DNA of 64,000 bases, taken from assembly GCA_001818495.1 (NCBI GenBank), contig MHKS01000005.1:250038-314037 (forward strand), written 5' to 3'. The DNA is from Candidatus Komeilibacteria bacterium RIFOXYD1_FULL_37_29 (GTDB lineage: Bacteria; Patescibacteriota; Patescibacteriia; UBA1558; GWA2-36-10). Below are positions 19,597-34,903 of this stretch, one piece after another. Position 1 is the first letter of the stretch; every line of letters starts with the position of its first letter. The notes beneath the pieces were generated by a model. It made no database searches. It had not been told where the DNA came from and saw nothing but the letters and a program-made list of their open reading frames with translations. A program made the translations under genes and the position numbers.

Positions 19597-19686
19597 GGAG
19601 AGGTGCTAGAGTGGTTGAATAGGGTGCTCTCGAAAAGCACTAGTCCTGAAAGGGACTCGGGGGTTCAAATCCCTCCCTCTCCGCCA
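19597..19686 (+). tRNA. tRNA-Ser (anticodon CGA), type II with a long variable arm, 3' CCA encoded
   Basis: GGAGAGGTG...acceptor, with the pairing CCTCTCC-G-CCA at the 3' end. D-loop AGAGTGGTTGAA. Anticodon loop CTCGAAA. Long extra arm. T-arm GGTTCAAATCC. Confidence 0.85.
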
Positions 19687-20035
19687 TCCTTCGCTAAAGC
19701 TACGGAATGACTAGCCATATGTTATATTATACTTACATTTTATTAAGCTCAAAATCTCATATTTTTTATTTTGGTTCAACGAATAATTTAAAAAATAGAT
19801 TGGAGCTGCATAATAGCGGCAAGGTAACATCAACTAAATCGCATATACCTTGGAAATTAGTTTGGTATTGTGTATTTGAAACGGAAAAACAGGCAAGAGA
19901 TTTTGAGCTTTATTTAAAAACAGGGTCAGGAAAATCTTTTGCTTATAAAAGACTTATTTCCGTGGCTTTAGAGAAGGATTTCAGGGAAGGGAGAATAGGT
20001 AGTCCGAAGCGGAAGCCTTAGCTTTTGCGAAGGAT
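19687..20035. mobile_element. 349-bp GIY-YIG mini-element inserted at the 3' end of tRNA-Ser. It is bounded by 16-bp imperfect terminal inverted repeats (TCCTTCGCTAAAGCTA / TAGCTTTTGCGAAGGA) and flanked by a 16-bp direct repeat of the tRNA 3' end (CCCTCCCTCTCCGCCA at 19671-19686; ACCTCCCTCTCCGCCA at 20036-20051).
   Basis: Repeats are read directly. TIR match is 15/16 and DR match 15/16. The only gene inside is the GIY-YIG ORF. Confidence 0.6.
19707..20021 (+). CDS. GIY-YIG nuclease-domain protein (YhbQ/Slx1-like, UPF0213 family)
   Basis: YYTYILLSSKSHIFYFGSTNNLKNRLELHN...TK...PWKLVWYCVFETEKQARDFELYLK matches the GIY-YIG core (GIY / YIG / R / E / N). Confidence 0.8.
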   Translation: MTSHMLYYTYILLSSKSHIFYFGSTNNLKNRLELHNSGKVTSTKSHIPWKLVWYCVFETEKQARDFELYLKTGSGKSFAYKRLISVALEKDFREGRIGSPKRKP

Positions 20036-20190
20036 ACCTCCCTCTCCGCCAGATTACCAAGTTTGAACCCAAGCAAAATAAGGGTTTTGTGCTATTGAAA
20101 AGCCGGTGTCCGAATAAGGTGCTGATTTTTTAAAATCCTTATCAAATGAGTAAATTTTTGGTAAAATAGAGTTAATAAGAATAGAATTAT

Positions 20191-24262: not shown

Positions 24263-24265
24263 ATT

Positions 24266-25450
24266 ATGGCATTAGAATCAGAAAAATTGGAAGAAAAAAT
24301 AGTTGATAATTATTTTACTGATACTCTATATAGTAGTCGGGAATTTAAGGGTGGAGTAGGTAAATTTTTTACAATAGTATCTCAGGATGAAAATGATATC
24401 CCAAATGTAGTTGATGTTGAGCATTCGTATCCTATACGCAATAAAATAAAGACAACGCTGACATTTATCAAAAAAGAAAACGAAATTACAGCCATTTCCT
24501 TTAAGCGTTTTAAATATTATAAAAAAGAACATTGGGTTGAACAACCAGAAGAACAGATTACTTTTTCATACAGTCTTTTTAAAAAAATTATTGGGTATTT
24601 ACAGTTACTATCAGAATTAAATTTGTCGGCTATTAGTGAGCGAAGAATTGCTTTAGCCGATGACACATTACCGAATATTGACGATGAAACAAAAAAGAAG
24701 ATTAAAACATTGCTTTTACGCAAAGATGGGCAAAAAATTATTGAGGAATTAATAAATAGCGGAATAATTACATCAACCGATATTGTAAATATCGGGTATC
24801 GAAAAAAACAACTTGATGTTTTTGAGAAGCTCCTGACACAACCCGATTATTTTGCAACCTATATAACTGAAAGTAAAATTACAGATACTCGTCATGAGTC
24901 TGTTTGGCAACATTTCTTCCATTCTAATGATTGGATTTTTGGATATGGACTAGATTATCGCTTTCTTGGCATCCTGCAAAAAGAAGCTCATATTTCAAAT
25001 ACAGACGTCGCAGGAAAAGGGGCTGTTATAAATGATTTTCTACTCGGGTGCAATAAATTCACCGTTTTGGTTGAATTAAAAAAACACGACACACCATTAT
25101 TTGGAAAAGACAAAAACCGGTCAAACTCTTGGACACTTTCAGATGATTTAATATCTGGTCTATCTCAAATATTAGAGCAAAAAGCTAGTTGGCAGGTTTC
25201 GGCCGAGACAAATGCAAGTGGAAATTTTGACGATAAGGGTAATTTGATAAAACAAAAAACTATCGATCCAAAAAGTATCTTAGTTATCGGATCAACAAAG
25301 CAATTTGATGGTGATGATAAAGAAAATCAAATTAAAGCAAAAACCTTTGAACTTTTTAGACGAGATTCAAGAAATATAGAAATTCTTACTTATGACGAAC
25401 TGTATGAGAGAGCGAAGTTTATTGTTGAACATAAACAGAAAGACAACTAG
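24266..25450 (+). CDS. Putative defense-associated PD-(D/E)xK nuclease, Shedu (SduA/DUF4263)-like
   Basis: 394 aa. Core AVINDFLLGCNKFTVLVELKK gives D...ELK, a PD-(D/E)xK signature. C-terminal KSILVIGST...IEILTYDELYERA resembles DUF4263 ends. Immediately downstream of Type III R-M. Confidence 0.4.
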   Translation: MALESEKLEEKIVDNYFTDTLYSSREFKGGVGKFFTIVSQDENDIPNVVDVEHSYPIRNKIKTTLTFIKKENEITAISFKRFKYYKKEHWVEQPEEQITFSYSLFKKIIGYLQLLSELNLSAISERRIALADDTLPNIDDETKKKIKTLLLRKDGQKIIEELINSGIITSTDIVNIGYRKKQLDVFEKLLTQPDYFATYITESKITDTRHESVWQHFFHSNDWIFGYGLDYRFLGILQKEAHISNTDVAGKGAVINDFLLGCNKFTVLVELKKHDTPLFGKDKNRSNSWTLSDDLISGLSQILEQKASWQVSAETNASGNFDDKGNLIKQKTIDPKSILVIGSTKQFDGDDKENQIKAKTFELFRRDSRNIEILTYDELYERAKFIVEHKQKDN

Positions 25451-25793: not shown

Positions 25794-26387
25794 ATGGATC
25801 AACAAACAATCAATACATACAACAGGATGTCACAAGAGTATGATGATGAAACAGCTGATTTTTGGGAGCGATTTCCTCGAACATTTCTTGATAAATTTAT
25901 TAAGCTATCCGGTAATAAAATACTTGATGTTGGGAGCGGACCAGGTAGAGATGGTTTGATACTTCAACAGGCCGGTAAAAATGTTGTCTGTGTGGATGCT
26001 TCTGCAGCAATGGTGAAATTGTCTTCAGACAGAGGTTTAAACTCTATAGTAGCCAGTTTCGACAATTTACCATTTGAAAATAATTCATTTGACGGCGTAT
26101 GGTCATATACTGCTCTTTTACATATTCCCAAAAAATCTATCGATACCCCTCTTCAAGAGATTTTTCGTATTATCAAACCTTCAGGTATTTTTGCTCTTGG
26201 TCTGATTGAAGGGGACACAGAAGGATACAAAGAAAGCTCTGAAGTGACTATGCCTCGTTGGTTTAGTTTCTATCAGAAAGACGAAGTTGAAAATTTATGC
26301 CAAAAGCACGGATTTGAGCTGGTTTACTTTGAGACTTTTAAACCAGGGTCCAAGCCCTATTTGAATTTTATTTTTCGAAAAATATAA
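25794..26387 (+). CDS. Class I SAM-dependent methyltransferase (Methyltransf_11-like)
   Basis: Motif I KILDVGSGPGRDGL. Acidic motif II VVCVDAS. 197 aa. Confidence 0.75.
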   Translation: MDQQTINTYNRMSQEYDDETADFWERFPRTFLDKFIKLSGNKILDVGSGPGRDGLILQQAGKNVVCVDASAAMVKLSSDRGLNSIVASFDNLPFENNSFDGVWSYTALLHIPKKSIDTPLQEIFRIIKPSGIFALGLIEGDTEGYKESSEVTMPRWFSFYQKDEVENLCQKHGFELVYFETFKPGSKPYLNFIFRKI

Positions 26388-26416: not shown

Positions 26417-26665
26417 TTTTCACTGTCTTTTCAGGCAGTTTTTTGGTATAATCAAAGCATTAATTAATAAAAATATTATGATTGACGAAGAAATAAAGCA
26501 AATTATTCAGGAAAATAAGGACACTTTGGCTAATATTGATAAAAGGATTGGTCGGATTGAGAAAAATTTTATTTGGAGTTCAATTTTTGGTTTTATAAAG
26601 ATTGTTATTATTGTAGCACCGATTGTTTTTGGTATTATTTATTTTACGCCATTTTTGAAAGATTT
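26417..26665. repeat. Left copy of a roughly 250-bp direct repeat (about 95% identical to 33399..33648). It carries an extended -10 promoter (TTTTGGTATAAT) and the 5' part of a small membrane-protein gene.
   Basis: Direct sequence comparison. Shared sequence runs from TTTTCACTGTCTTTTCAGGCAGTTTTTTGGTATAATCAAAG through ...TTTACGCCATTTTT. Confidence 0.9.
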
Positions 26666-26690
26666 AAATAAATTGGGTATTATTACATAA
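26478..26690 (+). CDS. Small membrane protein (70 aa). A truncated paralog/duplicate of 33461..33811.
   Basis: MIDEEIKQIIQENKDTLANIDKRIGRIEKNFIWSSIFGFIKIVII... is near-identical to the N-terminus of the 33461 ORF. It diverges where the DNA repeat ends. Confidence 0.6.
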   Translation: MIDEEIKQIIQENKDTLANIDKRIGRIEKNFIWSSIFGFIKIVIIVAPIVFGIIYFTPFLKDLNKLGIIT

Positions 26691-26707
26691 TTAAGAAATG
26701 GTAGTAT

Positions 26708-28426
26708 ATGAAAAAGTCAAAAGTCATATTAGGGATTACTGCCTTTAATCATGATTCTTCGGCGTGCTTAATTTATCAAGGTAGAGTAATTGCATTTTGT
26801 GAGGAGGAAAGATTCAATGGCATAAAACATACCGGAGATTTTCCGATAAAATCAATTTTATTTTGTTTAGAAAAAGCTGGTTTGTCATTAAATGATGTGA
26901 CTGATGTAGCTTTTTATTTTAATATTAAAAAATGTTTATTGAGTTATATAAAGAACAATAATCCACTCTATTATATTATTCATCCATCTTTATTTAAGAG
27001 GAAAAGATTTTATTATGAAATTATTTGGTTATTTAGTTTTATAAACAAAATTAATTCAATTAAAAAACTCCTTAATAATTATAAGATAAAGATTACTTAT
27101 GTAGATCATCATATGGCGCACGCTTGGTATGGGTATTTTTCTTCAAATTTTAAAAATTGCACGGTAGTTTCTAATGACAGCGTAGGCGAGAGTGTGAGTA
27201 GTTTAGCCGTAAAGATACAGAGAGAAGATAAAAAAATTATTTTTGGTAAGACATTCAGTCAAACAGACCCTCACTCTATTGGGTATTTGTATGGTGCTAT
27301 AACTGAATTTTTAGGATTCAAAAGAGGTCAAGACGAAGGAAAGGTTATGGCTATGGCGGCTTTAGGGAAAGATAAATATGTAAAATATTTTGATGACTTG
27401 ATTAGATATTTACCTAATGGGGAATTTAGAATAAGTAAGGAGTTGATTTCCTTACGTAATTTTCAGCCAAAATCACAAAGATTAAGCAATGATTTTTTAA
27501 AAAAATTTGGATATTATCGTCAACCCCAAGAACCATTTATCCAAAAGCATTATGATATTGCTTATGCAATACAAGGGGTAACGGAAAAAATTTTATATCA
27601 CCAATTAAAATATATTAATGATGATAATATAGTCATTACTGGTGGTATTGCTCAAAATAGTGTAGCCAACGGGAAACTCAACAATTTTTTTTATAAAAGA
27701 AATATATTTATTCCTCCGATTCCTAATGATGCCGGGTGTGGTATTGGCGCGGCGCTTTCTTTATATTATAAGTATTATGAAGATTTACCAGAGTTTGTGG
27801 ATACTGCGTTTTTAGGCCCAGAATTTTCTGATCATAAAATCATTAAAACATTAGAAAATAATAAAATAAATTTTAAAATTATAAAAAATCAGACGGAATT
27901 CATTATTAATGAGCTTTTGAAAAATAAGATTATCGCTATATATAGAAATGAGATGGAGTGTGGTCCTAGGGCATTAGGTAATAGGAGTATAATAGCCAAT
28001 CCAATTGATCCGGCGATGAAGAATTACATCAATGAAAAAATAAAACACCGTGAATTTTTTCAGCCATACGGCGGGTTGATTATTGATAAAAATGTTAAAG
28101 AAGTATTTGATTATAAGAATAAAAATATTTCCGGACCATATATGTCTTTTGTTTATCCAATTAAAGATAAATGGTTAAAAATGTTTCCATCTTTGGTTCA
28201 TTTTGATAAAACTTCTAGAATTCAAATAATAAAGAAGGAACAAAATTTTTTATATAGTCTCTTGGAAGAATTTTATAAAAAAACAGGTGTCCCCGTAATT
28301 ATAAATACTTCCCTTAATTTAAGAGGGCAGCCTATGGCAAGAAGCCATCAAGATGCTTTAAACACATTTTATAATTCGGGGATTCATTATATTTTATTTA
28401 ATAACAGTATTCTAGTTTCAAAATGA
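26708..28426 (+). CDS. NodU/CmcH-family carbamoyltransferase
   Basis: N-terminal KVILGITAFNHDSSACLIYQGRVIAFCEEERFNGIKHTGDFP matches the carbamoyltransferase N-domain (compare TobZ/NodU ...LG...HD.AAAL..DG.I.AA.EEERF.R.KH). A DHHMAHAWYGYF metal-binding motif is present. 572 aa. Confidence 0.85.
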   Translation: MKKSKVILGITAFNHDSSACLIYQGRVIAFCEEERFNGIKHTGDFPIKSILFCLEKAGLSLNDVTDVAFYFNIKKCLLSYIKNNNPLYYIIHPSLFKRKRFYYEIIWLFSFINKINSIKKLLNNYKIKITYVDHHMAHAWYGYFSSNFKNCTVVSNDSVGESVSSLAVKIQREDKKIIFGKTFSQTDPHSIGYLYGAITEFLGFKRGQDEGKVMAMAALGKDKYVKYFDDLIRYLPNGEFRISKELISLRNFQPKSQRLSNDFLKKFGYYRQPQEPFIQKHYDIAYAIQGVTEKILYHQLKYINDDNIVITGGIAQNSVANGKLNNFFYKRNIFIPPIPNDAGCGIGAALSLYYKYYEDLPEFVDTAFLGPEFSDHKIIKTLENNKINFKIIKNQTEFIINELLKNKIIAIYRNEMECGPRALGNRSIIANPIDPAMKNYINEKIKHREFFQPYGGLIIDKNVKEVFDYKNKNISGPYMSFVYPIKDKWLKMFPSLVHFDKTSRIQIIKKEQNFLYSLLEEFYKKTGVPVIINTSLNLRGQPMARSHQDALNTFYNSGIHYILFNNSILVSK

Positions 28427-29247
28427 TTAAAGATTTTCAAAAGATAGAGTTTTTAAAATCACTTTACAGTGATAAAGACTTAATATCGTTTCGTGGCAAT
28501 TTTTTAAAAAATAATTCCAACCGTAAATTCTCATTAAGATCTTTTATTATTAAACTTTTGCCGATGCTAAAGGATAAAAAAATATTAGACATTGGTTGCG
28601 GAGACGGGTCATTCCTCAATAAATTACATACGGTATATCCTCAAAATAAATATTTTGGTTTGGATGTAGTAGATAATGCTAAATGCCATAAATTGAAATT
28701 TCTTGACTACAAAATTTATGATGGTAAATCCAGGGTTTATTATACGGAAAAATTTGATGTGATATTTTGTATGCACACTGTTTATCATATCGAAGATTTA
28801 TTCACTTTTTTTACAACGATGAAAGACTATTTAAAGCCCCATGGCATTATTATCATTACTACGAAGTCTAAATTGACTTTTCCTAAAATAGAATCAATCT
28901 TTTTAAAGATTGTCGGTAAGCTTGACTTAAAAAAATATTTAAAAATTAGCAAACACAGAGAGGAATCAAAATTTTGTTTGGAGAACGGATTAAACAGATT
29001 AAAAAAACACTTCGCTAGGCGGTCATTTAGTATAAATGAGTATGTTTTAGAAACGCAGGTTTTTGTTAATGACAAAAAAGATCTTTTGAAATATGTTTTT
29101 TCTACAAATAGATATAATATTTTGAAAGATACTTTAAACAAAAAAATTGTTGAAAAATATACAAAACTTTGGTTTGAAGAAATTGATAAAGATCAGATAT
29201 TCATTGATAAATATACGGAGGCTGTTTATTTAATAAAAAAATTATGA
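28423..29247 (+). CDS. SAM-dependent methyltransferase
   Basis: Motif I KILDIGCGDGSFLNKL. D-x motif KYFGLDVVD. Start overlaps the upstream stop by 4 nt. Confidence 0.7.
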   Translation: MIKDFQKIEFLKSLYSDKDLISFRGNFLKNNSNRKFSLRSFIIKLLPMLKDKKILDIGCGDGSFLNKLHTVYPQNKYFGLDVVDNAKCHKLKFLDYKIYDGKSRVYYTEKFDVIFCMHTVYHIEDLFTFFTTMKDYLKPHGIIIITTKSKLTFPKIESIFLKIVGKLDLKKYLKISKHREESKFCLENGLNRLKKHFARRSFSINEYVLETQVFVNDKKDLLKYVFSTNRYNILKDTLNKKIVEKYTKLWFEEIDKDQIFIDKYTEAVYLIKKL

Positions 29248-30311
29248 AAATAGGTTATAGTTGCTGGGGATTTTTGGGTAACGGAATAAAGGATACACCG
29301 GATGGCGGGAGGAGTCACCGGTTGACTTTATTGAAAGAATTAATCCGTCAAGGAGTTGAAATAGTAATGTTGCAAAAGAATAGAGACCTCATTGAAGGCA
29401 ATCAAAGTTTTTCACGAAAGAATTTAATATTTAGTGGTGAGTTACCGGAAATAGATGCTCTATTTGTAGAATATAGATGGAAGATAGTAGGAAGGAATTA
29501 TAAGGTGAGAAAAAATAATCCAGCCTATACTCCGGATTTCGATAGACAGAGTGAATTAATTAATTTTTATAATAATAGAAATATTCCTATTATTATTTGG
29601 GATAAAGATCAGAAACTTGGTAAGAATGAAATAAAAGGCATTAAAAATTTGATTGTATTTGAACCTGCTTTAAAGCCAAGGTTTAATAGAAAAAGTTTAT
29701 TGTTTCCGATGGACAATCATAGAACAAAAATTGTCCTCAAATTGATAGGTAAGTATAAAAAAAATATTAAGAGCTCCAAGTTGTGTTACATTGGAAATCA
29801 ATATGAGAGAGATGGTAGTTTTAAAGAGTTTATTAATAAGCCAGCCAGTATGCTCGATACCAAAACACCAGTATTTGGTAATTGGAACAAATATCCAGAA
29901 AAGTATAAGCAAAATATGCAAAAATTTTCCAATGTTGAATTTAAAGGTAGGGTGCAGTTTAATAAAGTTAATAATATTTATAAAAAATCTTTTTCTACAG
30001 TTCTTATCGCGCCACGGAGATATTATATCACGGGTCATTTTACACAAAGATTATTTGAGGCAATGTGGGGCTTATGCATTCCTTTTACCCCGCAGCAATA
30101 TCATGGATGGCAGGGTTTAATAATAAAAGATTTTATAATTAGATCTGGCAAAGATTTAATAAATAAGATAAAAAAATTAGAAACAACGCCCGATTCAGAT
30201 ATAAGGAGAATGTTTGATAGACAGTTTGAGAAACTTAATTTATTTAATGCCAGTAAACAAGCCAGTATAATTATAAACGAAATCAATAATCATAATGGTA
30301 GACTCGGGTAA
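29244..30311 (+). CDS. T4 beta-glucosyl-HMC-transferase-like (BGT-family GT-B) putative DNA glycosyltransferase
   Basis: Comparison with the recalled T4 BGT sequence shows collinear matches. MKIGYSCWGFLGNG vs MKIAIINMGNNVIN. RLTLLKELIRQGVEIVMLQKN vs IYLFKVISEMGLNVDIISLKN. CYIGNQYERDGSF vs IYGGSFRSGQRE. TKTPVFGNWNKYP vs TKAPVFTGKIP. FTQRLFEAM vs ITLRVWETM. 355 aa versus 351 aa for T4 BGT. Confidence 0.55.
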   Translation: MKIGYSCWGFLGNGIKDTPDGGRSHRLTLLKELIRQGVEIVMLQKNRDLIEGNQSFSRKNLIFSGELPEIDALFVEYRWKIVGRNYKVRKNNPAYTPDFDRQSELINFYNNRNIPIIIWDKDQKLGKNEIKGIKNLIVFEPALKPRFNRKSLLFPMDNHRTKIVLKLIGKYKKNIKSSKLCYIGNQYERDGSFKEFINKPASMLDTKTPVFGNWNKYPEKYKQNMQKFSNVEFKGRVQFNKVNNIYKKSFSTVLIAPRRYYITGHFTQRLFEAMWGLCIPFTPQQYHGWQGLIIKDFIIRSGKDLINKIKKLETTPDSDIRRMFDRQFEKLNLFNASKQASIIINEINNHNGRLG

Positions 30312-31074
30312 TAAAAATAAATCTTTAGAAATTGTAATTGATTCTAAACACTATATTAAAAAAAGATATTCTGATATCCAACGTTTTTTTTGTGAATTAA
30401 AATATCTTAAATATTTTAAAGATGAAGATATCAATGTTCCTTTTATATATAAATTTGATAAAATCCAAAAAACAATAATAATAGATAAAATAAAGGGGAA
30501 AATCGGCGATTCATTAAATAATAGAGACACAAAACTATGCATTGATGTGCTTGTCAAAATAATTTTTATTTTTGGTTTGGAAAAGAAAAATAATAATGAA
30601 ATTGATAGGTATATTTCAAAAGTCAGGTCAAATATAATATGGTGGTGTGAAAATAATAATTATATAGTAGAAAAAGAAAAATTAAATATTTTACTTCAAA
30701 AGTTAAGAAAAGTGTGTTATATATCTTTATTCAAAGATGCCAAACCATCTAATTGGATTTTTCAAAAAGATAAAATATACGCAATAGACTTTGATTATGT
30801 AAAAAAATCATTTTTTTTAGCAGATTTAGCACAACTTTTAAGTTATATTTCATTAAGGAAAAAAATAAGTTATATTTTCTTTGTAAATTATTATCTAAAG
30901 CAAATATTCCCAAAAATGAAGGATTATGATAAATTTTATATACCTTTTAAATTAGCGCTTGTTAATTCCAACATTGCTTCTGAACTTCACAGAGAGAATT
31001 TAGGAGCCTATGTAAAAAGGGGTTTTGCCAAACAAAACAGGTTTATTTTGAGTGAATTTAAGATAATATTATAA
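30295..31074 (+). CDS. Atypical protein-kinase-like (Kdo/WaaP/RIO-type) small-molecule kinase
   Basis: Catalytic-loop-like FKDAKPSNWIF (D-x-K-P-x-N) and a metal-binding IYAIDFDYV (DFD) motif. 259 aa. Confidence 0.4.
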   Translation: MVDSGNKNKSLEIVIDSKHYIKKRYSDIQRFFCELKYLKYFKDEDINVPFIYKFDKIQKTIIIDKIKGKIGDSLNNRDTKLCIDVLVKIIFIFGLEKKNNNEIDRYISKVRSNIIWWCENNNYIVEKEKLNILLQKLRKVCYISLFKDAKPSNWIFQKDKIYAIDFDYVKKSFFLADLAQLLSYISLRKKISYIFFVNYYLKQIFPKMKDYDKFYIPFKLALVNSNIASELHRENLGAYVKRGFAKQNRFILSEFKIIL

Positions 31075-31955
31075 TGTCAATATCAATAACCGCCAAATCA
31101 GCTAATGAAGCATTCATTAAAATAGCTGATAAATTGTATAATAATCCGGAATATGTTTCTAGTCCTCGAAGCTGGGAAACAAGGGAGTTATTAGGGGCTT
31201 TTATTGTTATCAACAATCCCTATGATCGTTTTATAAATAATGTTCATAGGAAGATTTCTTTAAAGTATCTTATTGGTGAATGGTTATGGTATGAGCGAGG
31301 ATCCAATTCTTTAAATGAAATTAATTATTATGCAAAATTTTGGAGCAGTATTTCGGATGATAAAATAACTGCCAATTCAGCTTATGGTCATAGAATTTTA
31401 GGGATCAATAAGTTCGTGATTATTAATCAATGGAAGTGGGCCAAACGGCAAATAATAAAAGATAAGGAAACAAGGAGAGCCATCATTTTTATTGGATTGC
31501 CAAGTGATATGAAAAACGAAACGAAAGATTTTCCTTGCACTATGTCACTCCAGTTTTTAATAAGAAATAATGAGTTACATTTAATTTGCAATATGAGGAG
31601 CAATGATTTAGTATTGGGTTTTACTTATGATGTAGCTACCTTTACTTTATATCAAGAAAAAATGTTGTTGGAGTTGAAAAAATATTATCCAAAATTAAAG
31701 ATAGGTAAATATTTTCATATGGTAGGCAGTTTACACGTATATAAGAAAAACTATGAGATGATAAAAAAAGTGATAAATGATCAGGACAATAATTTGAAAA
31801 TTACCATGCCTCGCATGGGTGATTTAAAAGAAATAAAAAAACTCCAGTATAACGAGAGTATTATAAGAGAAAATAAAAATAAAAAGTTTAAAAAAATTGA
31901 AGATAGATTCTGTATCTGGTGTCAGAATATTTTATTAAATAAAATTAAATACTAA
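31074..31955 (+). CDS. Thymidylate-synthase-family pyrimidine-nucleotide C5 (hydroxy)methylase with predicted dCMP specificity (deoxycytidylate hydroxymethylase-like)
   Basis: Collinear with E. coli ThyA. KYLIGEWLWYERG vs RSIIHELLWFLQG. The YG loop is conserved. RRAII vs RRIIV. FPCTMSLQFLIRNNELHLICNMRSNDLVLGFTYDVATF vs [38 protein letters not shown]. The catalytic Cys is present. The Asn that reads O4/N3 of dUMP (E. coli N177) is Asp here, as in T4 dCMP hydroxymethylase (Asp179). Confidence 0.7.
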   Translation: MSISITAKSANEAFIKIADKLYNNPEYVSSPRSWETRELLGAFIVINNPYDRFINNVHRKISLKYLIGEWLWYERGSNSLNEINYYAKFWSSISDDKITANSAYGHRILGINKFVIINQWKWAKRQIIKDKETRRAIIFIGLPSDMKNETKDFPCTMSLQFLIRNNELHLICNMRSNDLVLGFTYDVATFTLYQEKMLLELKKYYPKLKIGKYFHMVGSLHVYKKNYEMIKKVINDQDNNLKITMPRMGDLKEIKKLQYNESIIRENKNKKFKKIEDRFCIWCQNILLNKIKY

Positions 31956-31956
31956 A

Positions 31957-32628
31957 ATGAAAGGCATAATTATAGACGGAGTTGTTTCTTCTGGTAAAAC
32001 GTCTATCTTAAAACATCTTCATCGTCTGATTTCAGAACAAAACCCTACTTCAACCAAGTTTTTTATTAGTGAACACTATACTGAGAGAATGTTGGAGCAT
32101 TTGAAAGATAAAGGTGAATTAGACGGTAGCCATATAAAAGCCCACGTTGATCAGTTAATCCATACTTTAGCTTCTTTTCAGTCTATGTTGGATAATTCTA
32201 AGTTTCGTGATAACCCGAAAGGAGCAGATTTGTTTGTTACTTTAGAAAGATTTATTCTAACCCATTTGTCCTCAGTGGACATAGGAGATAAATATAGTCT
32301 TGATGAAGTCAAAGCTCATTTTGAAATTTTAAACAAGCTAGGAGTAAAACAAGTAGCTTTAATAATTCCCGAATCAAGACTAAAAGAAAATATCATGTCG
32401 ACTCTGCAATATCGAAATGACGCCTGGTTGGATTATTTGTATTCTAGGGGTGGAGAAAAAGAAATTATAGAATATTATATCAATTGGCAGAATAATTTTT
32501 TAGAGTATATCAACAAATTTAAAGATATAATAGATACCTTAGTCATCGAAGTAAAAGATCAAGACTATCTTCAATATAGTAATACTATTTTTAATAGTTG
32601 TATTAAATCAGATATTCTCTCAAAATAA
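31957..32628 (+). CDS. P-loop nucleoside/deoxynucleoside monophosphate kinase-like protein
   Basis: N-terminal Walker A MKGIIIDGVVSSGKTSILKHL. 223 aa. The position after the ThyA-like gene mirrors phage dNMP kinases. Confidence 0.45.
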   Translation: MKGIIIDGVVSSGKTSILKHLHRLISEQNPTSTKFFISEHYTERMLEHLKDKGELDGSHIKAHVDQLIHTLASFQSMLDNSKFRDNPKGADLFVTLERFILTHLSSVDIGDKYSLDEVKAHFEILNKLGVKQVALIIPESRLKENIMSTLQYRNDAWLDYLYSRGGEKEIIEYYINWQNNFLEYINKFKDIIDTLVIEVKDQDYLQYSNTIFNSCIKSDILSK

Positions 32629-33114
32629 ATGTTTTTTAATTTTATGTTTTTTATACTTTACCCCGGCTAAATCAAAGAGTTTTTTAGAAACGATAAAATT
32701 ATTCGCATCTTTGTCTGATCTATCATCTTGATAGATTATATTTTTTATGCCGCTTTGGATAATAATTTTTGCACACTCATTGCAGGGGAAGAGTAAACAG
32801 TAAAGTTTTGCATTTTCGGCTGATTGATTAGTATTTAAAATGGCATTTACTTCAGCGTGAACAACATACGGATATTTTGTATTTAAGATATTTTTTTTGT
32901 TATGCCCGTAATTATTACTCCAAGAAAAATGCCCTTCCTTAATACCTCTAGGCCAACCGTTGTAGCCAACTCCTAAAACAACATTATTTTTATCAACCAC
33001 GACAGCTCCGGTTTGAGTTGATGGGTCTTTTGATCTCTGAGCTATAACTTGAGCCATTAGCATAAATGTTTCATCCCACGATAAATAGTTTTTTCTAGCT
33101 TTTATATTATCCAT
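32620..33114 (-). CDS. Deoxycytidylate (dCMP) deaminase
   Basis: Zinc site HAEVNAI and PCNECAKII (cytidine/deoxycytidylate deaminase signature). 164 aa. Convergent with the kinase gene. Confidence 0.85.
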   Translation of the reverse strand: MDNIKARKNYLSWDETFMLMAQVIAQRSKDPSTQTGAVVVDKNNVVLGVGYNGWPRGIKEGHFSWSNNYGHNKKNILNTKYPYVVHAEVNAILNTNQSAENAKLYCLLFPCNECAKIIIQSGIKNIIYQDDRSDKDANNFIVSKKLFDLAGVKYKKHKIKKHLF

Positions 33115-33398
33115 TTTTGTAGGTTAGATCACTTTATAAGAATATAATACCCCATACTTATCTTAAAAGTCAAAGATTATAACTATTATTTTTATGTCGA
33201 AACTAGTCAACAAACTAAAACCGAGAAAAATTTTTGGTTGTCAGAAAGAAGCTTGAATAATATAGGCAAGAAAGAGAGTTTTATTATAATGCTCGGAGGA
33301 GATATGTGAAATATTATGAACCAAACATTTAATTCGCAATGATTACTGGTTGTTCTATATAAAAAGATAGAGCCGTTAGTGTTAGTTGACGATTTCTG

Positions 33399-33648
33399 TT
33401 TTTCACTGTCTTTTCAGGCAGTTTTTTGGTATAATCAAAGCATTAATTAATAAAAATATTATGATTGACGAAGAAATAAAGCAAATTATTCAGGAAAATA
33501 AGGAAACTTTAGCTAATATTGATAAAAGAATTGGTCGGATTGAGAAAAATTTTATTTGGAGTTCAATTTTTGGTTTTGTAAAGATTGTTATTATTTTAGG
33601 GCCGATTATTTTTGGTATTATTTATTTTACGCCATTTTTAAAAGATTT
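33399..33648. repeat. Right copy of the roughly 250-bp direct repeat (see 26417..26665), including promoter TTTTGGTATAAT
   Basis: Direct comparison. Confidence 0.9.
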
Positions 33649-33811
33649 TATTCGTATTTATGAACCATTTTTCAAGAATCTACCGATTACTTTACAAAAT
33701 TTAAACAATCCTTCTTCGGACTCAAATATTCCAACTGGCGCTCAGGCTGGGTTAGAAAATTTTTGTGATCCACAAGTTCGCGAGGCCATGATCGATAGTC
33801 TTTGTAAATAA
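33461..33811 (+). CDS. Small membrane protein (117 aa). The full-length version of the duplicated gene.
   Basis: Starts MIDEEIKQIIQENKETLANIDKRIGRIEKNFIW... 12 nt after an A-rich stretch downstream of TGGTATAAT. The ORF track begins earlier at 33386, but the ATG at 33461 matches the paralog. Confidence 0.55.
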   Translation: MIDEEIKQIIQENKETLANIDKRIGRIEKNFIWSSIFGFVKIVIILGPIIFGIIYFTPFLKDFIRIYEPFFKNLPITLQNLNNPSSDSNIPTGAQAGLENFCDPQVREAMIDSLCK

Positions 33812-33817
33812 AAAATC

Positions 33818-34903
33818 ATGGAAGAATTACGCAGTAAAATAAAAACTTTATTTTTGGAGATTTCTAAATCTTTGAAAATTTTTGATTTAGAAAATAAAAA
33901 AAGTAAATTGGGAGAACTCAAAAACGAAATGACCAGACCAGACTTTTGGAATGACCAAGAACGAGCCAAAAATATTAGCTGGCAAGCCAGTGTTTTGGAG
34001 AAGGGTATCAATGACTGGCAGAATATAGCCAAGGAAGTAGCCGAGCTTAATGATTTGTCTCAAGATCAGCAGGCTGAGGAGTTATTAAAAGAATTGGAAA
34101 ATAAGTATAATATTCTTTATAATCAATTTACATCTTTGGCCGTTCAACTTTTTCTGCAAGGAAAATATGACGAGCTAGCCGCTATCATCACTGTCAATGC
34201 TGGAGCCGGAGGAGTAGATGCTCAAGACTGGGCGCAAATGATCGAAAGAATGTATTTACGACTAGCTGAGAAAAATAATTGGCAGGTCCATTTGATGTCG
34301 CGTTCAGTCGGCTCGGAAGCAGGGATTAAAAGTGTGATTTTTAAAGTCCAAGGTCCTTATGCTTATGGCTATTTAAAAAACGAAGCTGGAGTACATCGTT
34401 TGGTCCGTTTGTCGCCTTATGATGCTGATCACGCCCGGCATACTTCTTTTGCTATGTTAGAAGTTTTGCCGGAGATAATCAATCCGGAGATAGATATCAA
34501 AGAAGAAGATATCAAAGTTGATACTTTTCGGTCTTCTGGTAATGGCGGTCAGTCGGTCAATACTACTGATTCGGCTGTGCGGGTGACACATCTACCAACG
34601 GGAATTTCCGCTGGCTGTCAAAACGAGAGATCACAGATACAAAATAAAAAGCAAGCTCTCAGTCATCTCTACGCCAAATTGCAAAAATATTATGAGGCCG
34701 AGCAAGAAGACGAAAGAAAAATGATAAAGGGAGAATATACCGAAGCGGCTTGGGGCAATCAAATTCGCTCTTATGTTATTCATCCGTATAAAATGGTCAA
34801 AGACCATCGGACAAATTTTCAGTCCAAAGATCCAGACAGGGTCTTAGGTGGAGATTTAATGCCATTTATTAAGGCCAATTTGGAAAAAAATGTAGTGGCC
34901 TAA
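33818..34903 (+). CDS. prfB: Peptide chain release factor 2
   Basis: GGQ motif in SGNGGQSVNTTDSAVRVTHLPTGI. RF2-type SPF-like region. Single intact frame, no frameshift site needed. Confidence 0.85.
   Translation: MEELRSKIKTLFLEISKSLKIFDLENKKSKLGELKNEMTRPDFWNDQERAKNISWQASVLEKGINDWQNIAKEVAELNDLSQDQQAEELLKELENKYNILYNQFTSLAVQLFLQGKYDELAAIITVNAGAGGVDAQDWAQMIERMYLRLAEKNNWQVHLMSRSVGSEAGIKSVIFKVQGPYAYGYLKNEAGVHRLVRLSPYDADHARHTSFAMLEVLPEIINPEIDIKEEDIKVDTFRSSGNGGQSVNTTDSAVRVTHLPTGISAGCQNERSQIQNKKQALSHLYAKLQKYYEAEQEDERKMIKGEYTEAAWGNQIRSYVIHPYKMVKDHRTNFQSKDPDRVLGGDLMPFIKANLEKNVVA

What the first reader, a model, noticed from the sequence alone, without database searches (positions are those of the whole stretch)
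26417..33648. Roughly 7-kb gene cassette bounded by about 250-bp direct repeats that duplicate a promoter and the 5' end of a small membrane-protein gene
The repeats are about 95% identical. The left copy ends in a truncated 70-aa ORF, and the right copy continues into the full 117-aa gene upstream of prfB. So the native arrangement was probably promoter, small gene, then prfB. Seven genes were inserted, and their operon is now driven by the duplicated TGGTATAAT promoter. Repeat-mediated deletion would excise the cassette cleanly, i.e. it behaves as a recombination-mobilisable module.
Basis: seen in the sequence. Interest (0 to 1): 0.6.

Follow-up and report, generated by a model that had tools for sequence, protein, structure and literature searches.

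The report
Repeat-flanked phage-like cytosine-modification gene cassette
A 7-kb block of genes resembling a bacteriophage pathway for decorating DNA cytosines has been inserted, between duplicated copies of a promoter, just upstream of an essential gene in a tiny groundwater bacterium. Relatives of the block turn out to be widespread but undescribed in bacteria.

Summary
Two 249-254-nt direct repeats, 96% identical, lie 6983 nt apart and occur exactly twice in the window (0 expected by chance).

Diverged relatives have small gene then prfB with no cassette. Each repeat starts with a conserved hairpin and a TGnTATAAT promoter.

Corrections:
- The small gene is 116 aa.
- The 70-aa ORF is an in-frame chimera of the small gene and the cassette's own leader ORF, joined at an ~18-nt microhomology.
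- Only six genes can use the duplicated promoter. The dCMP deaminase is antisense.

The kinase-GT-TS-deaminase core recurs beside the DNA polymerase of phage contigs. A TS-carbamoyltransferase-GT trio is conserved in 75 of the 80 best loci (306 matches in species-representative genomes).

Evidence for mobility:
- A sister lineage carries the same cassette at another locus, again between promoter repeats.
- Gene order is circularly permuted across lineages.
- Two metagenome contigs show the reciprocal deletion and circle/tandem junctions, although these could be mis-assemblies.

The product and its target are inferred, not shown.

The parts
26417..26670 (+). Left direct-repeat copy. It contains the terminator-like hairpin (26422-26439), the extended -10 TGGTATAAT (26444-26452) and the first ~63 codons of the small-protein gene.
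   Evidence: The hairpin and promoter are conserved in relatives.
26478..26690 (+). 70-aa chimeric ORF. The small-protein N-terminus (about 63 codons) is fused in frame to the tail of the cassette's own leader ORF (...DLNKLGIIT*). Its stop codon lies 17 nt before the carbamoyltransferase ATG.
   Evidence: The three-way alignment A6 shows the switch from small-gene sequence to cassette-leader sequence inside an ~18-nt microhomology at about 26649-26668. The sister-lineage leader is MQTLLFEDYAKFLDDLDRLKIIK*.
26651..33108 (+). Cassette core: the segment shared (83.8% nt identity, same 7 genes in the same order) with a sister lineage, where it sits at a different locus.
   Evidence: blastn of L102/L103 against the window; gene tables.
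26708..28426 (+). O-carbamoyltransferase (NodU/CmcH/TobZ family, 572 aa).
   Evidence: Pfam Carbam_trans_N and Carbam_trans_C; phrog_1601. Closest PDB entries are 7xb6, GdmN, NovN and TobZ. It is only 22% identical to the phage 5hmC carbamoyltransferase. At TobZ positions 408/421/423 it has I/G/R.
28423..29247 (+). Class I SAM-dependent methyltransferase (274 aa).
   Evidence: Pfam Methyltransf_23/31/11. It is syntenic in other CPR-type cassettes.
29244..30311 (+). GT-B glycosyltransferase homologous to phage T4 DNA beta-glucosyltransferase (355 aa).
   Evidence: T4 BGT is the only significant PDB match of the family profile (E = 1.3e-8). T4 R195/R269/E272 align with family-invariant R189/R269/E272. 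The AF2 model has pLDDT 93.9, and its top four Foldseek hits are T4 BGT. There are 258 homologues, and the family occurs beside TS homologues in phage contigs.
30295..31074 (+). Bud32/APH-like (protein-kinase-fold) small-molecule kinase (259 aa).
   Evidence: Weak Pfam APH and NCBIfam Bud32 hits. It is naturally fused to the GT in P0011, P0015 and P0019. An APH-family kinase occupies the equivalent place in the Streptomyces operon.
31074..31955 (+). Thymidylate-synthase homologue predicted to be a dCMP C5-hydroxymethylase (293 aa). 5-hydroxylase activity is not excluded.
   Evidence: Closest PDB entries are MilA (1.5e-30) and T4 gp42 (1.3e-17). In ThyA numbering it has E58 Y94 R126 R127 L143D C146 H147T R166 S167 D169 N177D H207 Y209. 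Residue meanings are taken from PMC5175136, PMC8670742 and PMC13326640.
31957..32628 (+). Nucleoside-monophosphate-kinase-fold P-loop protein (223 aa), a candidate (modified) dNMP kinase.
   Evidence: No Pfam or PDB sequence hit. The AF2 model has pLDDT 90, and Foldseek top hits are adenylate and thymidylate kinases. A Tmk-like gene sits beside the GT in phage contig L114.
32620..33114 (-). dCMP deaminase (164 aa), antisense to the other six genes.
   Evidence: Pfam dCMP_cyt_deam_1 and phrog_174. A deaminase also follows the TS gene in L023, L024 and phage L114.
33115..33399 (.). Right-end spacer, unique to this locus (not shared with the sister lineage). It carries the best promoter-like site of the region for the deaminase (minus strand, 33310-33283, TTCACA-16-TATAAT).
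33400..33653 (+). Right direct-repeat copy. It has the same hairpin (33405-33422) and TGGTATAAT (33427-33435) and continues into the intact small gene.
33461..33811 (+). Intact small hydrophobic protein gene (116 aa). It is a lineage-restricted orphan and the native upstream neighbour of prfB.
   Evidence: Only 5 homologues among 5.8 billion proteins. Contexts L018-L021.
33818..34903 (+). prfB (peptide chain release factor 2, 361 aa), the gene downstream of the insertion site.
   Evidence: Pfam PCRF and RF-1. The same order is seen in relative L020.
19597..19686 (+). tRNA-Ser(CGA), marking the left end of the ~14-kb variable island (GIY-YIG, Type III R-M, Shedu, methyltransferase, cassette). 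The repeat-bounded cassette is the last module of this island.
   Evidence: ARAGORN and Rfam. The island is inferred from L021, where the orthologue of window 18840-19406 directly abuts the small gene.

Best explanation
What it is. The region is a horizontally acquired 6.5-kb cassette with no promoter-like site of its own at its left end (core 26651-33108). It was inserted into the 5' part of a small orphan gene that natively sits between a variable, tRNA-linked defence island and prfB, in a Candidatus Komeilibacteria (CPR) chromosome.

How it was inserted (inferred). The left junction was made by illegitimate joining at an ~18-nt microhomology between codons ~58-64 of the small gene and the cassette's leader ORF. 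On the right, a second copy of hairpin + promoter + 5' small gene restores an intact small gene and prfB. The result is a 250-nt direct duplication. The left promoter copy is placed to drive chimeric leader ORF, carbamoyltransferase, methyltransferase, glycosyltransferase, kinase, TS homologue, NMP kinase. The right copy keeps the small gene and prfB expressed. The most economical route is homology-facilitated illegitimate recombination of incoming DNA from a sibling lineage that already had the cassette upstream of this gene. A Campbell-type single crossover of a circle carrying the homologous segment is equally compatible.

What happens afterwards (inferred). The 105-nt perfectly identical block allows RecA-type repeat-by-repeat exchange. 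That exchange gives a cassette-less chromosome plus a circle, or a tandem copy.

The TS homologue converts dCMP to 5-hydroxymethyl-dCMP. The NMP-kinase-like protein takes this towards the triphosphate for incorporation at replication. The dCMP deaminase rebalances the pools. The T4-BGT-like enzyme glycosylates the 5-hydroxymethylcytosine in DNA. The carbamoyltransferase, methyltransferase and Bud32/APH-like kinase decorate the sugar. In short, this would be a phage-type cytosine hypermodification pathway operating on a bacterial chromosome, next to a Type III R-M system and Shedu.
For: Structure and origin:
- Repeat anatomy.
- Relatives have small gene then prfB without the cassette. The sequence upstream of the hairpin differs in every lineage.
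- L021 places the orthologue of window 18840-19406 directly against the small gene.
- Low GC between the repeats.
- The sister lineage has the same cassette core at another locus, again between ~50-nt promoter-bearing direct repeats.
- Chimeric leader and microhomology junction.
- No integrase or transposase was detected in the cassette.
- The truncated left copy keeps about 6 of 9 polarisable ancestral alleles, while the intact right copy is the derived one. That is the opposite of in-situ duplication followed by decay.

Mobility:
- Three cyclic permutations of the same six-gene order occur in independent lineages.
- Reciprocal junction contigs L013 and L108.

Function:
- TS homologue residues L143D, H147T, S167, R126 and N177D, with all catalytic residues kept (PMC5175136, PMC8670742, PMC13326640).
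- The GT resembles T4 BGT by profile and by fold, with UDP-binding residues conserved.
- NMP-kinase fold of the P-loop protein.
- Natural GT-kinase fusions.
- A deaminase recurs in other versions of the cassette.
- In phage contig L114, Tmk-like kinase, GT, TS and dCMP deaminase sit between the replication genes and the DNA polymerase. 11 of 16 viral GT loci carry a TS homologue with the same active-site signature.
- The co-occurrence of carbamoyltransferase, Asp177-type TS and dCMP deaminase is the published signature of cytosine-modified phage DNA (PMC8670742).
Against: - No chemistry or expression was measured, so product and target are inferred.
- The carbamoyltransferase is not in the characterised 5hmC-carbamoyltransferase clade (22% identity; G and R at two of three discriminating positions).
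- There is no dCTPase or other means of excluding dCTP, so any replacement of C would be partial.
- The Actinobacterial relatives add a histidine phosphatase and sugar-nucleotide enzymes, and about half have Gly at TS position 167. That would also suit a free nucleoside or nucleotide product.
- The GT's TM-score to BGT is only ~0.6, and generic GT-B enzymes follow closely.
- TS homologues of this type can also be flavin-dependent 5-hydroxylases (PMC13326640).
- Every near-identical population sampled (>=99.6% identity, more than 10 assemblies) carries the cassette. The only 'excised' and 'circle' junctions are single short contigs that could be assembler mis-joins.
- Promoter-like hexamer matches in this AT-rich region are no more frequent than in shuffles.
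Confidence: 0.55

Rival explanations
1. The cassette makes a free small molecule, such as a decorated 5-hydroxymethyl-cytosine nucleoside or nucleotide (an antimetabolite or antibiotic in the manner of mildiomycin or bacimethrin), rather than modifying DNA.
For: MilA (mildiomycin CMP hydroxymethylase) is the closest solved relative of the TS homologue. The carbamoyltransferase is closest to natural-product O-carbamoyltransferases: GdmN, NovN and TobZ. APH-type kinases and methyltransferases are typical tailoring or self-resistance enzymes (own knowledge). The Actinobacterial operon adds a histidine phosphatase, an NDP-sugar epimerase/dehydratase and a cytidylyltransferase. Other versions add a sulfotransferase, PAPS synthesis and UDP-glucose dehydrogenase.
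Against: The window TS homologue has the deoxyribo-type S167/R126, not the ribo-type Ala/Lys of MilA and BcmA (PMC5175136). No MilB/BcmB-type N-glycosidase was detected in the cassette. The GT's only PDB sequence relative is a DNA glucosyltransferase. The kinase-GT-TS-deaminase core sits in phage replication modules. An NMP kinase and a dCMP deaminase point to dNTP supply. No exporter is present in the cassette.
Confidence: 0.22
2. The cassette is an anti-phage defence module that makes a modified deoxynucleotide which poisons or depletes phage DNA synthesis. The logic would resemble prokaryotic viperins or dCTP deaminase defence. It would not be a self-DNA modifier.
For: It lies in a defence island directly after Type III R-M and Shedu. 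The deaminase gives partial matches (below family cut-offs) to models of anti-phage dCTP deaminase / dCTPase. It contains nucleotide kinases. Its distribution is accessory and patchy.
Against: PADLOC gives no system-level match. The deaminase is an ordinary short dCMP deaminase of 164 aa, far below the NCBIfam cut-off for the anti-phage enzyme (83.9 vs 400 bits). The GT, carbamoyltransferase and methyltransferase have no obvious role in a depletion mechanism. The defence neighbours are not conserved with the cassette elsewhere.
Confidence: 0.1
3. The direct repeats are a by-product of a local tandem duplication or of a one-off insertion, with no ongoing mobility. The 'deletion' (L013) and 'circle/tandem' (L108) junctions are assembly chimeras, and the cassette is now fixed.
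For: All contigs at >=99.6% identity from more than 10 assemblies show the duplicated arrangement. The two odd junctions are exactly the in/out swap that a de Bruijn graph can produce across a 105-nt identical block. No contig shows the complete methyltransferase-to-full-small-gene junction. Other CPR loci carrying the cassette have no long flanking repeats.
Against: L013 comes from a k=127 assembly, which spans the 105-nt block together with flank and SNPs. The two odd junctions come from different samples and are reciprocal. The sister lineage has the same cassette elsewhere, again between promoter repeats. The cyclic permutation of gene order across lineages needs a circular or tandem stage at some time. 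The SNP polarity does not fit in-situ duplication followed by decay of the dead copy.
Confidence: 0.3
4. The block is ordinary pyrimidine metabolism (thymidylate synthase + thymidylate kinase + dCMP deaminase) that happens to sit next to unrelated glycan genes.
For: Pfam and NCBIfam name the TS homologue 'thymidylate synthase' and PHROGs agrees. The P-loop protein has a dTMP-kinase-like fold.
Against: All NCBIfam ThyA scores are far below cut-off (62.7 vs 327 bits). N177D, L143D and H147T are incompatible with dUMP methylation (PMC8670742, PMC13326640). The TS, carbamoyltransferase and GT are co-linear in 75 of the 80 best loci from the genome scan.
Confidence: 0.03

Closest known systems
Phage T4 hydroxymethylcytosine pathway (gp42 dCMP hydroxymethylase, gp1 dNMP kinase, cd dCMP deaminase, beta-glucosyltransferase)
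   Same: It has the same four enzyme types. The TS homologue has the cytosine- and hydroxymethylase-type residues. The GT is a detectable sequence and fold homologue of T4 BGT with the UDP-binding Arg/Arg/Glu conserved. The same four-gene core sits beside the DNA polymerase in uncultured phage contigs.
   Different: It is located in a bacterial chromosome with no phage replication or structural genes. It has no dCTPase (gp56) and no dC-DNA nucleases. It carries three additional tailoring enzymes. The TS homologue is nearer to MilA than to gp42, and identity to BGT is only ~15%.
Phage 5-carbamoyloxymethylcytosine system (5hmC carbamoyltransferase; Yang et al. 2021, eLife, PMC8670742)
   Same: A NodU/TobZ-type carbamoyltransferase co-occurs with an Asp177-type TS homologue and a dCMP deaminase. 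That is the published co-occurrence signature of cytosine-modified phage contigs.
   Different: The window enzyme is 22% identical to the characterised enzyme. It has TobZ-like G421/R423 where the phage enzyme has C/T. Here a glycosyltransferase is always present between the TS and carbamoyl steps, so the carbamoyl acceptor is more likely the sugar. The host is a bacterium.
Mildiomycin / bacimethrin pathways (MilA/BcmA CMP hydroxymethylase followed by N-glycosidase and tailoring)
   Same: MilA is the closest solved structure to the TS homologue. Methyltransferase and kinase tailoring genes are present.
   Different: The ribo-specific Ala176/Lys133 are replaced by Ser/Arg. No MilB/BcmB N-glycosidase was detected. 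An NMP kinase, a dCMP deaminase and a BGT-like GT are present.
Bacterial genomic islands that hypermodify host DNA beside restriction functions (dpd 7-deazaguanine island; dnd/ssp phosphorothioation). This comparison rests on own knowledge.
   Same: It is an accessory multi-gene cassette, horizontally acquired and low in GC, lying in a defence island and predicted to modify the cell's own DNA.
   Different: The chemistry is unrelated (a pyrimidine C5 route through the nucleotide pool). No dedicated modification-sensing nuclease is conserved with the cassette. Modification has not been demonstrated.
Campbell-type single-crossover integration, or homology-facilitated illegitimate recombination during natural transformation (own knowledge of the mechanisms)
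   Same: The insert is flanked by a direct duplication of the homologous target segment. One junction lies at a short microhomology. No recombinase gene was detected in the cassette. ComEC is encoded 2.7 kb downstream. Repeat-by-repeat exchange predicts the deletion and circle/tandem junctions seen in L013 and L108.
   Different: The event was not observed. The donor configuration is hypothetical. A second lineage shows a promoter duplication at another locus, which suggests a recurrent (or selected) outcome rather than a single accident.

Membership tests
Cytosine-specific TS-superfamily hydroxymethylases (T4 gp42 / MilA type) | TS fold with the catalytic Cys146, Glu58, Tyr94, Arg166, Asp169, His207 and Tyr209 | tested here: met
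   All are conserved in the MAFFT alignment with E. coli ThyA. Pfam Thymidylat_synt E = 5e-22.
Cytosine-specific TS-superfamily hydroxymethylases (T4 gp42 / MilA type) | Asp instead of Asn177 (cytosine rather than uracil), and an acidic residue instead of Leu143 (water access; hydroxymethylase or hydroxylase rather than methylase) | tested here: met
   N177D and L143D. Residue meanings are from PMC8670742 and PMC13326640.
Cytosine-specific TS-superfamily hydroxymethylases (T4 gp42 / MilA type) | Deoxyribo versus ribo substrate: Ser167/Arg126' (dCMP) versus Ala/Lys (CMP; MilA, BcmA) | tested here: met
   The window protein has S167 and R126, the dCMP type (PMC5175136). 34 of 76 homologues from the genome-scan loci have G167 instead.
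Cytosine-specific TS-superfamily hydroxymethylases (T4 gp42 / MilA type) | Product is 5-hydroxymethyl (folate-dependent) rather than 5-hydroxy (flavin-dependent) or 5-methyl | not testable with these tools
   The 5hodCMP synthases share N177D and L143E (PMC13326640). No discriminating sequence rule was available.
T4 DNA beta-glucosyltransferase family (GT-B DNA glycosyltransferases) | Detectable sequence homology to BGT | tested here: met
   Profile A3 against PDB: BGT is the only significant hit, E = 1.3e-8, over profile positions 137-336.
T4 DNA beta-glucosyltransferase family (GT-B DNA glycosyltransferases) | GT-B two-Rossmann fold closest to BGT | tested here: met
   AF2 pLDDT 93.9. Foldseek ranks 1-4 are T4 BGT entries (E = 9e-11 to 2e-9, TM 0.60-0.63), followed closely by BshA, AviGT4 and others.
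T4 DNA beta-glucosyltransferase family (GT-B DNA glycosyltransferases) | UDP-sugar binding residues (T4 Arg195, Arg269, Glu272) | tested here: met
   They align with family-invariant R189, R269 and E272. The roles of the T4 residues are from own knowledge of the BGT structures.
T4 DNA beta-glucosyltransferase family (GT-B DNA glycosyltransferases) | Catalytic base Asp100 and activity on flipped-out 5hmC in duplex DNA | tested here: inconclusive
   The N-terminal domain was not aligned by HMMER. An invariant D98 exists in the family, but equivalence to Asp100 was not established. Activity is not testable here.
5hmC carbamoyltransferase of Yang et al. 2021 | Carbam_trans_N + Carbam_trans_C architecture, and co-occurrence with an Asp177-type TS homologue and a dCMP deaminase | tested here: met
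5hmC carbamoyltransferase of Yang et al. 2021 | Membership of the modification-associated clade (discriminating positions TobZ W408, G421, R423; close similarity to the characterised enzyme) | tested here: not met
   22% identity, E = 7e-13. The window enzyme has I/G/R and the characterised enzyme I/C/T. It is closer to 7xb6, GdmN, NovN and TobZ.
Site-specific integrative elements (integrase-borne islands, integron cassettes, transposons) | A recombinase or transposase gene, and short att / attC / terminal inverted repeats | tested here: not met
   No integrase, transposase or resolvase domain was found in any of the 7 cassette proteins. No inverted terminal repeats were found. The repeats are 250 nt of target gene. 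A rve transposase abuts the cassette only in L023.
Repeat-mediated (RecA-type) excision/amplification module | Direct orientation and an uninterrupted identity block long enough for homologous exchange | tested here: met
   A 105-nt perfect block at the start of both copies.
Repeat-mediated (RecA-type) excision/amplification module | Reciprocal recombinant junctions present in natural populations | tested here: inconclusive
   L013 (left flank + R alleles) and L108 (cassette end + L alleles + cassette start) exist, but cannot be told apart from assembly mis-joins without reads. Two metagenome scans for a census returned nothing.
Canonical thymidylate synthase ThyA | Asn177, Leu143 and His147, and a score above the NCBIfam equivalog cut-off | tested here: not met
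   The residues are D, D and T. Best NCBIfam score is 62.7 bits against a cut-off of 327.

The most novel reading that the evidence does not exclude
Cellular organisms, namely ultra-small CPR bacteria, several obligate host-associated or predatory lineages, and hundreds of Actinomycete species, replace part of their own chromosomal cytosine with a glycosylated 5-hydroxymethylcytosine. The sugar would be further carbamoylated, methylated, phosphorylated or sulfated. The pathway would be homologous to that of T4-like phages. In the CPR lineages it would ride on a recombinase-free cassette that inserts behind a host promoter by duplicating it, and that can leave again as a circle. This would be the first pyrimidine hypermodification of a bacterial genome, and a plausible way for nucleic-acid-scavenging symbionts to tell self DNA from host DNA.
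Probability: 0.3. Interest if true: 0.88.

Novelty: new variant of a known kind. Interest (0 to 1): 0.7.

Why it matters
If the inferred function is right, complex C5-cytosine hypermodification is not confined to viruses. It would be an accessory trait of bacterial chromosomes, and the same gene core was detected at 306 places in a scan of species-representative genomes. That would affect how restriction, Shedu-type nucleases, CRISPR and sequencing chemistries behave on such DNA. It would also offer new glycosyl-, carbamoyl- and sulfo-transferases acting on DNA.

The idea is directly testable, because many carriers are culturable Streptomyces, Kitasatospora and Micromonospora strains.

If instead the product is a free nucleoside, this is a very widespread and uncharacterised nucleoside-type biosynthetic cluster, which is also of interest.

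Independently of function, the locus is a clean natural example of how a promoterless operon can be installed upstream of an essential gene without a dedicated recombinase. The target promoter and gene start are duplicated, so both the newcomer and the resident stay expressed. The same signature recurs at a second locus in a sister lineage.

Tried and rejected
1. Cassette-less junction among near-identical genomes. Exact-protein look-ups with prfB, the 197-aa methyltransferase, the 116-aa gene and the 70-aa ORF returned only cassette-bearing contigs or contigs broken at the repeat, apart from L013 and L108.

2. My first look-up of the small gene used a start one codon too early (33458) and found nothing. 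This was corrected to 33461.

3. Single-protein scans of IMG/VR with the carbamoyltransferase, the TS homologue and the GT found no relatives. Only the profile-based scan worked.

4. A census of junction types in JGI metagenome contigs failed. Both a degenerate 147-nt pattern and a plain 71-nt core gave 0 matches, even for the normal junctions. That collection does not hold these samples.

5. PADLOC gave no defence-system assignment for the cassette.

6. The P-loop protein and the GT had no Pfam, PHROG or NCBIfam hit. They were resolved only by profile and structure.

7. Iyer et al. 2013 (NAR), the paper most likely to contain a prior prediction, is not in the held library. Four literature searches found no description of the bacterial operon.

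8. Rejected readings: ordinary thyA/tmk/dcd metabolism (residues and scores); an integron, transposon or integrase island (no recombinase, no att-like ends); part of a larger segmental duplication (flanks unrelated); a prophage (no phage genes were detected among the island genes annotated; the neighbours are FtsZ, NrdR, ComEC and the ribosomal operon).

9. Flanking long direct repeats were looked for in five other CPR-type loci and not found. Only L026 has an 83-nt repeat.

Full report
OBSERVATION. The repeat is real and sharply bounded. The repeat finder reports 26417-26665 and 33400-33648 (249 nt, 96% identical, spacing 6983). Aligning both copies with 170-nt flanks shows that similarity starts abruptly at 26417/33400 and ends at about 26670/33653. 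The sequence on either side is unrelated, so this is not the visible part of a larger segmental duplication. A 42-nt core occurs exactly twice in the window, with none in 100 shuffles. The first 105 nt are identical between copies. The remainder carries 9-11 copy-specific differences. Each copy contains a terminator-like hairpin ACTGTCTTTTCAGGCAGT followed by T6, an extended -10 TGGTATAAT, and the first ~63 codons of a small hydrophobic protein. The intact gene is 33461-33811 and encodes 116 aa, not 117. It ends 6 nt before prfB.

SETTING. NCBI names carried by identical proteins assign the sequence to Candidatus Komeilibacteria bacterium RIFOXYC1_FULL_37_11, a CPR/Patescibacteria organism. 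More than ten groundwater metagenome assemblies contain the same organism at 99.6-100% nt identity. The window is core chromosome: FtsZ, NrdR, ComEC, NDK and the S12/S7/EF-G ribosomal region. Between 19.4 and 33.4 kb lie a tRNA-Ser(CGA) (19597-19686), a GIY-YIG gene, a Type III R-M Mod and Res, a Shedu SduA nuclease (PADLOC E = 1.7e-154), a SAM methyltransferase, and then the repeat-bounded block. GC is 25-31% across the block and 35-43% in the flanking core.

NATIVE ARRANGEMENT. The small protein is a lineage-restricted orphan. A search of 5.8 billion proteins found only five hits: itself, the truncated copy, and three diverged homologues at 75%, 59% and 52% identity.
- In L020 the order is small gene, prfB (71% identity), then the homologue of the 492-aa gene that follows prfB in the window.
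- In L019 the genes upstream are a GT1 glycosyltransferase and two small ORFs.
- In L018 the upstream gene is unrelated to anything in the window.
- In L021 the upstream gene is a full-length homologue (42% identity) of window 18840-19406, the last core gene before the tRNA.

So small gene then prfB is ancestral, and the sequence immediately upstream is a variable hotspot. The entire 19.4-33.4 kb stretch of the window is island, and the repeat-bounded cassette is its last module. In the nucleotide alignment the hairpin and TGnTATAAT are conserved in L019, and the TGnTATAAT also in L021. Similarity to the window begins exactly where the repeat begins. The promoter assignment rests on this conservation, because hexamer-type promoter matches in this AT-rich DNA are no commoner than in shuffles (50 found, 50 expected).

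WHAT THE CASSETTE ENCODES.

(i) 31074-31955 is a thymidylate-synthase homologue that is not a ThyA. NCBIfam scores are 63 bits or less against cut-offs above 100-300. Its closest solved relatives are MilA CMP 5-hydroxymethylase (1.5e-30) and T4 dCMP hydroxymethylase (1.3e-17). Aligned to E. coli ThyA, it keeps E58, Y94, R126, R127, C146, R166, D169, H207 and Y209, and carries L143D, H147T and N177D with S167. From the literature:
- N177D switches the pyrimidine from uracil to cytosine (PMC8670742).
- An acidic residue at position 143 marks hydroxymethylases and the newly found 5-hydroxylases (PMC13326640).
- Ser167/Arg126' versus Ala/Lys separates dCMP from CMP users, and the MilA A176S/K133R mutant flips to dCMP (PMC5175136).

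The prediction is a dCMP C5-hydroxymethylase. 5-hydroxylase activity is not excluded.

(ii) 29244-30311 has no Pfam, PHROG or NCBIfam hit, but it has 258 homologues. A profile of 36 of them hits only T4 DNA beta-glucosyltransferase in the whole PDB (E = 1.3e-8). T4 R195/R269/E272 fall on family-invariant R189/R269/E272. The AlphaFold model (pLDDT 93.9) has T4 BGT as its four best Foldseek matches (TM ~0.62), ahead of generic GT-B enzymes.

(iii) 31957-32628, also unannotated, folds (pLDDT 90) as a nucleoside-monophosphate kinase. Thymidylate and adenylate kinases dominate the matches.

(iv) 32620-33114, on the minus strand, is a dCMP deaminase.

(v) 26708-28426 is a NodU/TobZ-type O-carbamoyltransferase.

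(vi) 28423-29247 is a SAM methyltransferase.

(vii) 30295-31074 is a Bud32/APH-like kinase. In three homologues it is fused to the C-terminus of the GT, which ties these two activities to one substrate.

COMPARATIVE CONTEXT. A scan of one genome per species with the GT profile found 306 loci. In the best 80, the TS homologue, carbamoyltransferase and GT are co-linear in 75. These include dozens of Streptomyces, Kitasatospora and Micromonospora. There the operon continues with a small Walker-A protein, a SAM methyltransferase, an APH kinase, a histidine phosphatase, an NDP-sugar epimerase/dehydratase and a cytidylyltransferase. CPR and other small-genome lineages carry the window's six-gene set at 27-56% identity: Paceibacterota, Saccharibacteria, Woesebacteria, a Rickettsiales MAG and a Bdellovibrionales MAG. 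Their accessory genes include a dCMP deaminase right after the TS gene (L023, L024), a sulfotransferase (L022, L024), PAPS synthesis and UDP-glucose dehydrogenase (L025).

The GT family is also present on 16 IMG/VR contigs. In 11 of them a TS homologue with the same active-site signature lies within the locus, and in seven it is immediately downstream. In phage contig L114 the order is helicase, primase, exonuclease, unknown, Tmk-like kinase, GT, TS homologue, dCMP deaminase, DNA polymerase, UvsX. This four-gene core, embedded in a viral replication module, is the strongest argument that the family's substrate is DNA made from a modified dCTP pool, as in T4.

The published co-occurrence signature of cytosine-modified phage DNA (carbamoyltransferase + Asp177-type TS + dCMP deaminase; PMC8670742) is also matched. 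However, the window carbamoyltransferase is only 22% identical to the characterised 5hmC carbamoyltransferase. It has TobZ-like G421/R423 where that enzyme has C/T. I therefore do not file it in that clade, and I infer that it carbamoylates the sugar added by the GT.

I found no description of the bacterial operon in the searchable literature. The one paper most likely to have predicted it (Iyer et al. 2013) is not held.

HOW THE REPEATS AROSE. A sister lineage (GT 86% identical; L102, L103) has the same seven genes in the same order. Nucleotide homology to the window runs only from 26651 to 33108 (83.8%), which defines the cassette core. Its right-hand neighbour is a 155-aa gene, not the small gene and prfB, so the cassette occupies a different locus. 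It is again bracketed by a direct repeat, here about 50 nt (GAACCTTTGATAATAATTTAGTTGTGGTATAATAAAA, two mismatches in the 37-nt core). The right copy precedes the 155-aa gene. The left copy precedes a 23-aa leader ORF and the carbamoyltransferase.

A three-way alignment shows that the window's left repeat copy follows the small gene up to CATTTTTGAAAGATTTAA. It then follows the cassette leader, whose tail reads ...DLNKLGIIT* in the window and ...DLDRLKIIK* in the sister. In both, the stop codon lies 17 nt before the carbamoyltransferase start. The '70-aa truncated ORF' is therefore an in-frame chimera made at an ~18-nt microhomology (13 of 18 positions shared between the small gene and the leader).

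No recombinase was detected in the cassette. With three outgroups, the truncated left copy keeps the ancestral allele at about 6 of 9 polarisable sites. The intact right copy holds the derived states, including amino-acid changes. That is the opposite of in-situ duplication followed by decay of the dead copy.

The simplest model (inferred) involves DNA from a sibling lineage carrying leader, cassette, spacer, promoter and small gene. It recombined homologously on its right. On its left it joined illegitimately, at the microhomology inside the recipient's small gene. The outcome is a recipient-type left copy and a donor-type right copy. A Campbell-type crossover of a circular copy is equally compatible. 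ComEC lies 2.7 kb downstream, so uptake of DNA is plausible. Selection explains why only promoter-duplicating outcomes are seen. The cassette lacks a promoter of its own at its left end, and prfB, just downstream, is presumably essential.

IS IT STILL MOBILE? Three observations bear on this.

(a) Gene order is cyclically permuted between lineages, always co-directional and contiguous:
- Window: CarbT-MT-GT-Kin-TS-NMPK.
- Saccharibacteria and Woesebacteria: NMPK-CarbT-MT-GT-Kin-TS.
- Rickettsiales MAG: GT-Kin-TS-NMPK-CarbT-MT. The Bdellovibrionales MAG shows GT-Kin-TS-NMPK up to its contig end.

Cyclic permutation is the footprint of a circular or tandem-array stage.

(b) L013, a k=127 MEGAHIT contig from a different groundwater project, joins the left flank to a repeat carrying the right-copy alleles at offsets 105 and 111. 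It stops at offset 127.

(c) L108 (2406 nt, no Ns) runs from the NMP-kinase gene through the deaminase and right spacer (to 33399) into a repeat with all 17 left-copy alleles, and on into the carbamoyltransferase at 100% identity.

Observations (b) and (c) are the two reciprocal products of an exchange within the 105-nt identical block: a cassette-less chromosome, and a circle or tandem junction. They are also exactly the swap an assembler can make across that block. They are 2 of about 27 repeat-crossing contigs, and no contig shows the complete deletion junction. Two attempts at a wider census returned nothing. I therefore treat current excision as plausible but unproven. All near-identical populations sampled retain the cassette.

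VERDICT. The cassette is one module of a larger island, one of the seven genes is antisense, and the left ORF is a chimera that reveals the junction mechanism. The cassette's content is the most interesting part.

My best explanation (confidence 0.55) is a recombinase-free, promoter-duplicating insertion of a phage-type cytosine hypermodification pathway. The pathway would run from dCMP to 5hm-dCMP, to the triphosphate, into DNA, then glycosylation, then carbamoyl, methyl and phosphate decoration of the sugar.

The main rival is a free nucleoside product (0.22). It is favoured by the natural-product affinities of the carbamoyltransferase and by the extra genes of the Actinobacterial operon. 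It is disfavoured by the deoxyribo-type TS residues, the BGT homology, the NMP kinase and deaminase, and the phage replication-module context.

Novelty: the chemistry and the recombination principle are both known kinds. Their occurrence as a conserved, widespread bacterial chromosomal operon, and the recurrent promoter-duplication mode of installation, appear to be undescribed. I rate it a new variant of a known kind, with interest 0.7.

Noticed in passing
window 19429-19686: An 84-nt tandem repeat (2.1 copies, 96% matches) lies immediately upstream of, and overlaps, the 5' end of the window's only tRNA (tRNA-Ser-CGA, 19597-19686). Each unit begins with the tRNA's first ~9 nt (GGAGAGGTG). It may be a scar of repeated integration or excision at the island's left end.
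   Followed up: partly
window 19707-25450: A defence island lies upstream of the cassette: a GIY-YIG nuclease-domain gene (19707-20021), a Type III R-M Mod (20191-22020) and Res (22001-24262), and Shedu SduA (24266-25450, PADLOC E = 1.7e-154). A stand-alone SAM methyltransferase follows (25794-26387). None of these is conserved with the cassette in other genomes.
   Followed up: partly
window 77-10813: A single giant ORF of 3578 aa on the + strand occupies the first 10.7 kb of the window. It was not analysed.
   Followed up: no
window 33818-34903: prfB is a single uninterrupted 361-aa ORF, with no sign of the programmed +1 frameshift site common in bacterial prfB genes. In one assembly (L007/L014) the gene is split into 259-aa and 108-aa products by an indel near 34520-34530, probably an assembly error.
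   Followed up: no
L026 5035-5117 and 11062-11144 (Amoebophilaceae MAG JAIETQ010000076.1): An 83-nt direct repeat (89% identical) duplicates the 3' end of mutL. It brackets a 6-kb insert that contains a decayed version of the cassette (methyltransferase + GT only), plus a TLC ATP/ADP-transporter fragment, an ABC transporter and an ATP-grasp fragment. No recombinase was detected. This is a second case of a gene-end duplication around an insert carrying this GT.
   Followed up: partly
P0011, P0015, P0019 (592-618 aa; metagenomic): These are natural fusions of the BGT-like glycosyltransferase with the Bud32/APH-like kinase, implying that the two enzymes act on the same substrate.
   Followed up: partly
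L078 4913-18366 (Streptomyces sp. BBFR51 chromosome) and about 70 other Actinobacterial loci: A conserved operon reads: 805-aa unknown, TS homologue, carbamoyltransferase, BGT-like GT, small Walker-A protein, SAM methyltransferase, APH kinase, histidine phosphatase, NDP-sugar epimerase/dehydratase fusion, AdoHcy-hydrolase-like protein, then further on a cytidylyltransferase. Streptomyces tanashiensis JCM 4086 has two copies (L080, L099). No description was found in the searchable literature.
   Followed up: partly
L023 13111-14118 (Saccharibacteria MAG CAUVHH010000001.1): A rve-family (IS-type) transposase gene abuts the end of the cassette, and a tRNA-Glu lies 1.3 kb further on. Different lineages may move the cassette by different means.
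   Followed up: no
L022 11811-12971, L024 11821-12963, L025 7362-8932 and 195-1007: Some versions of the cassette include a sulfotransferase, CysN/CysC-type PAPS synthesis and UDP-glucose dehydrogenase. This suggests sulfated and/or uronic-acid sugars in the product.
   Followed up: no
L102 6640-6800 / L103 4420-4580: A GC-rich palindromic element (GGGCGGGCAAAAATTTCTGGGGGTCTGGGGG...GCCCGCCC, CGCCCGCCAGAGGCGGGCG) sits in the otherwise 29%-GC right-end spacer of the sister lineage's cassette. A related GC-rich stem follows the 155-aa gene. It may be a REP-like or terminator element.
   Followed up: no
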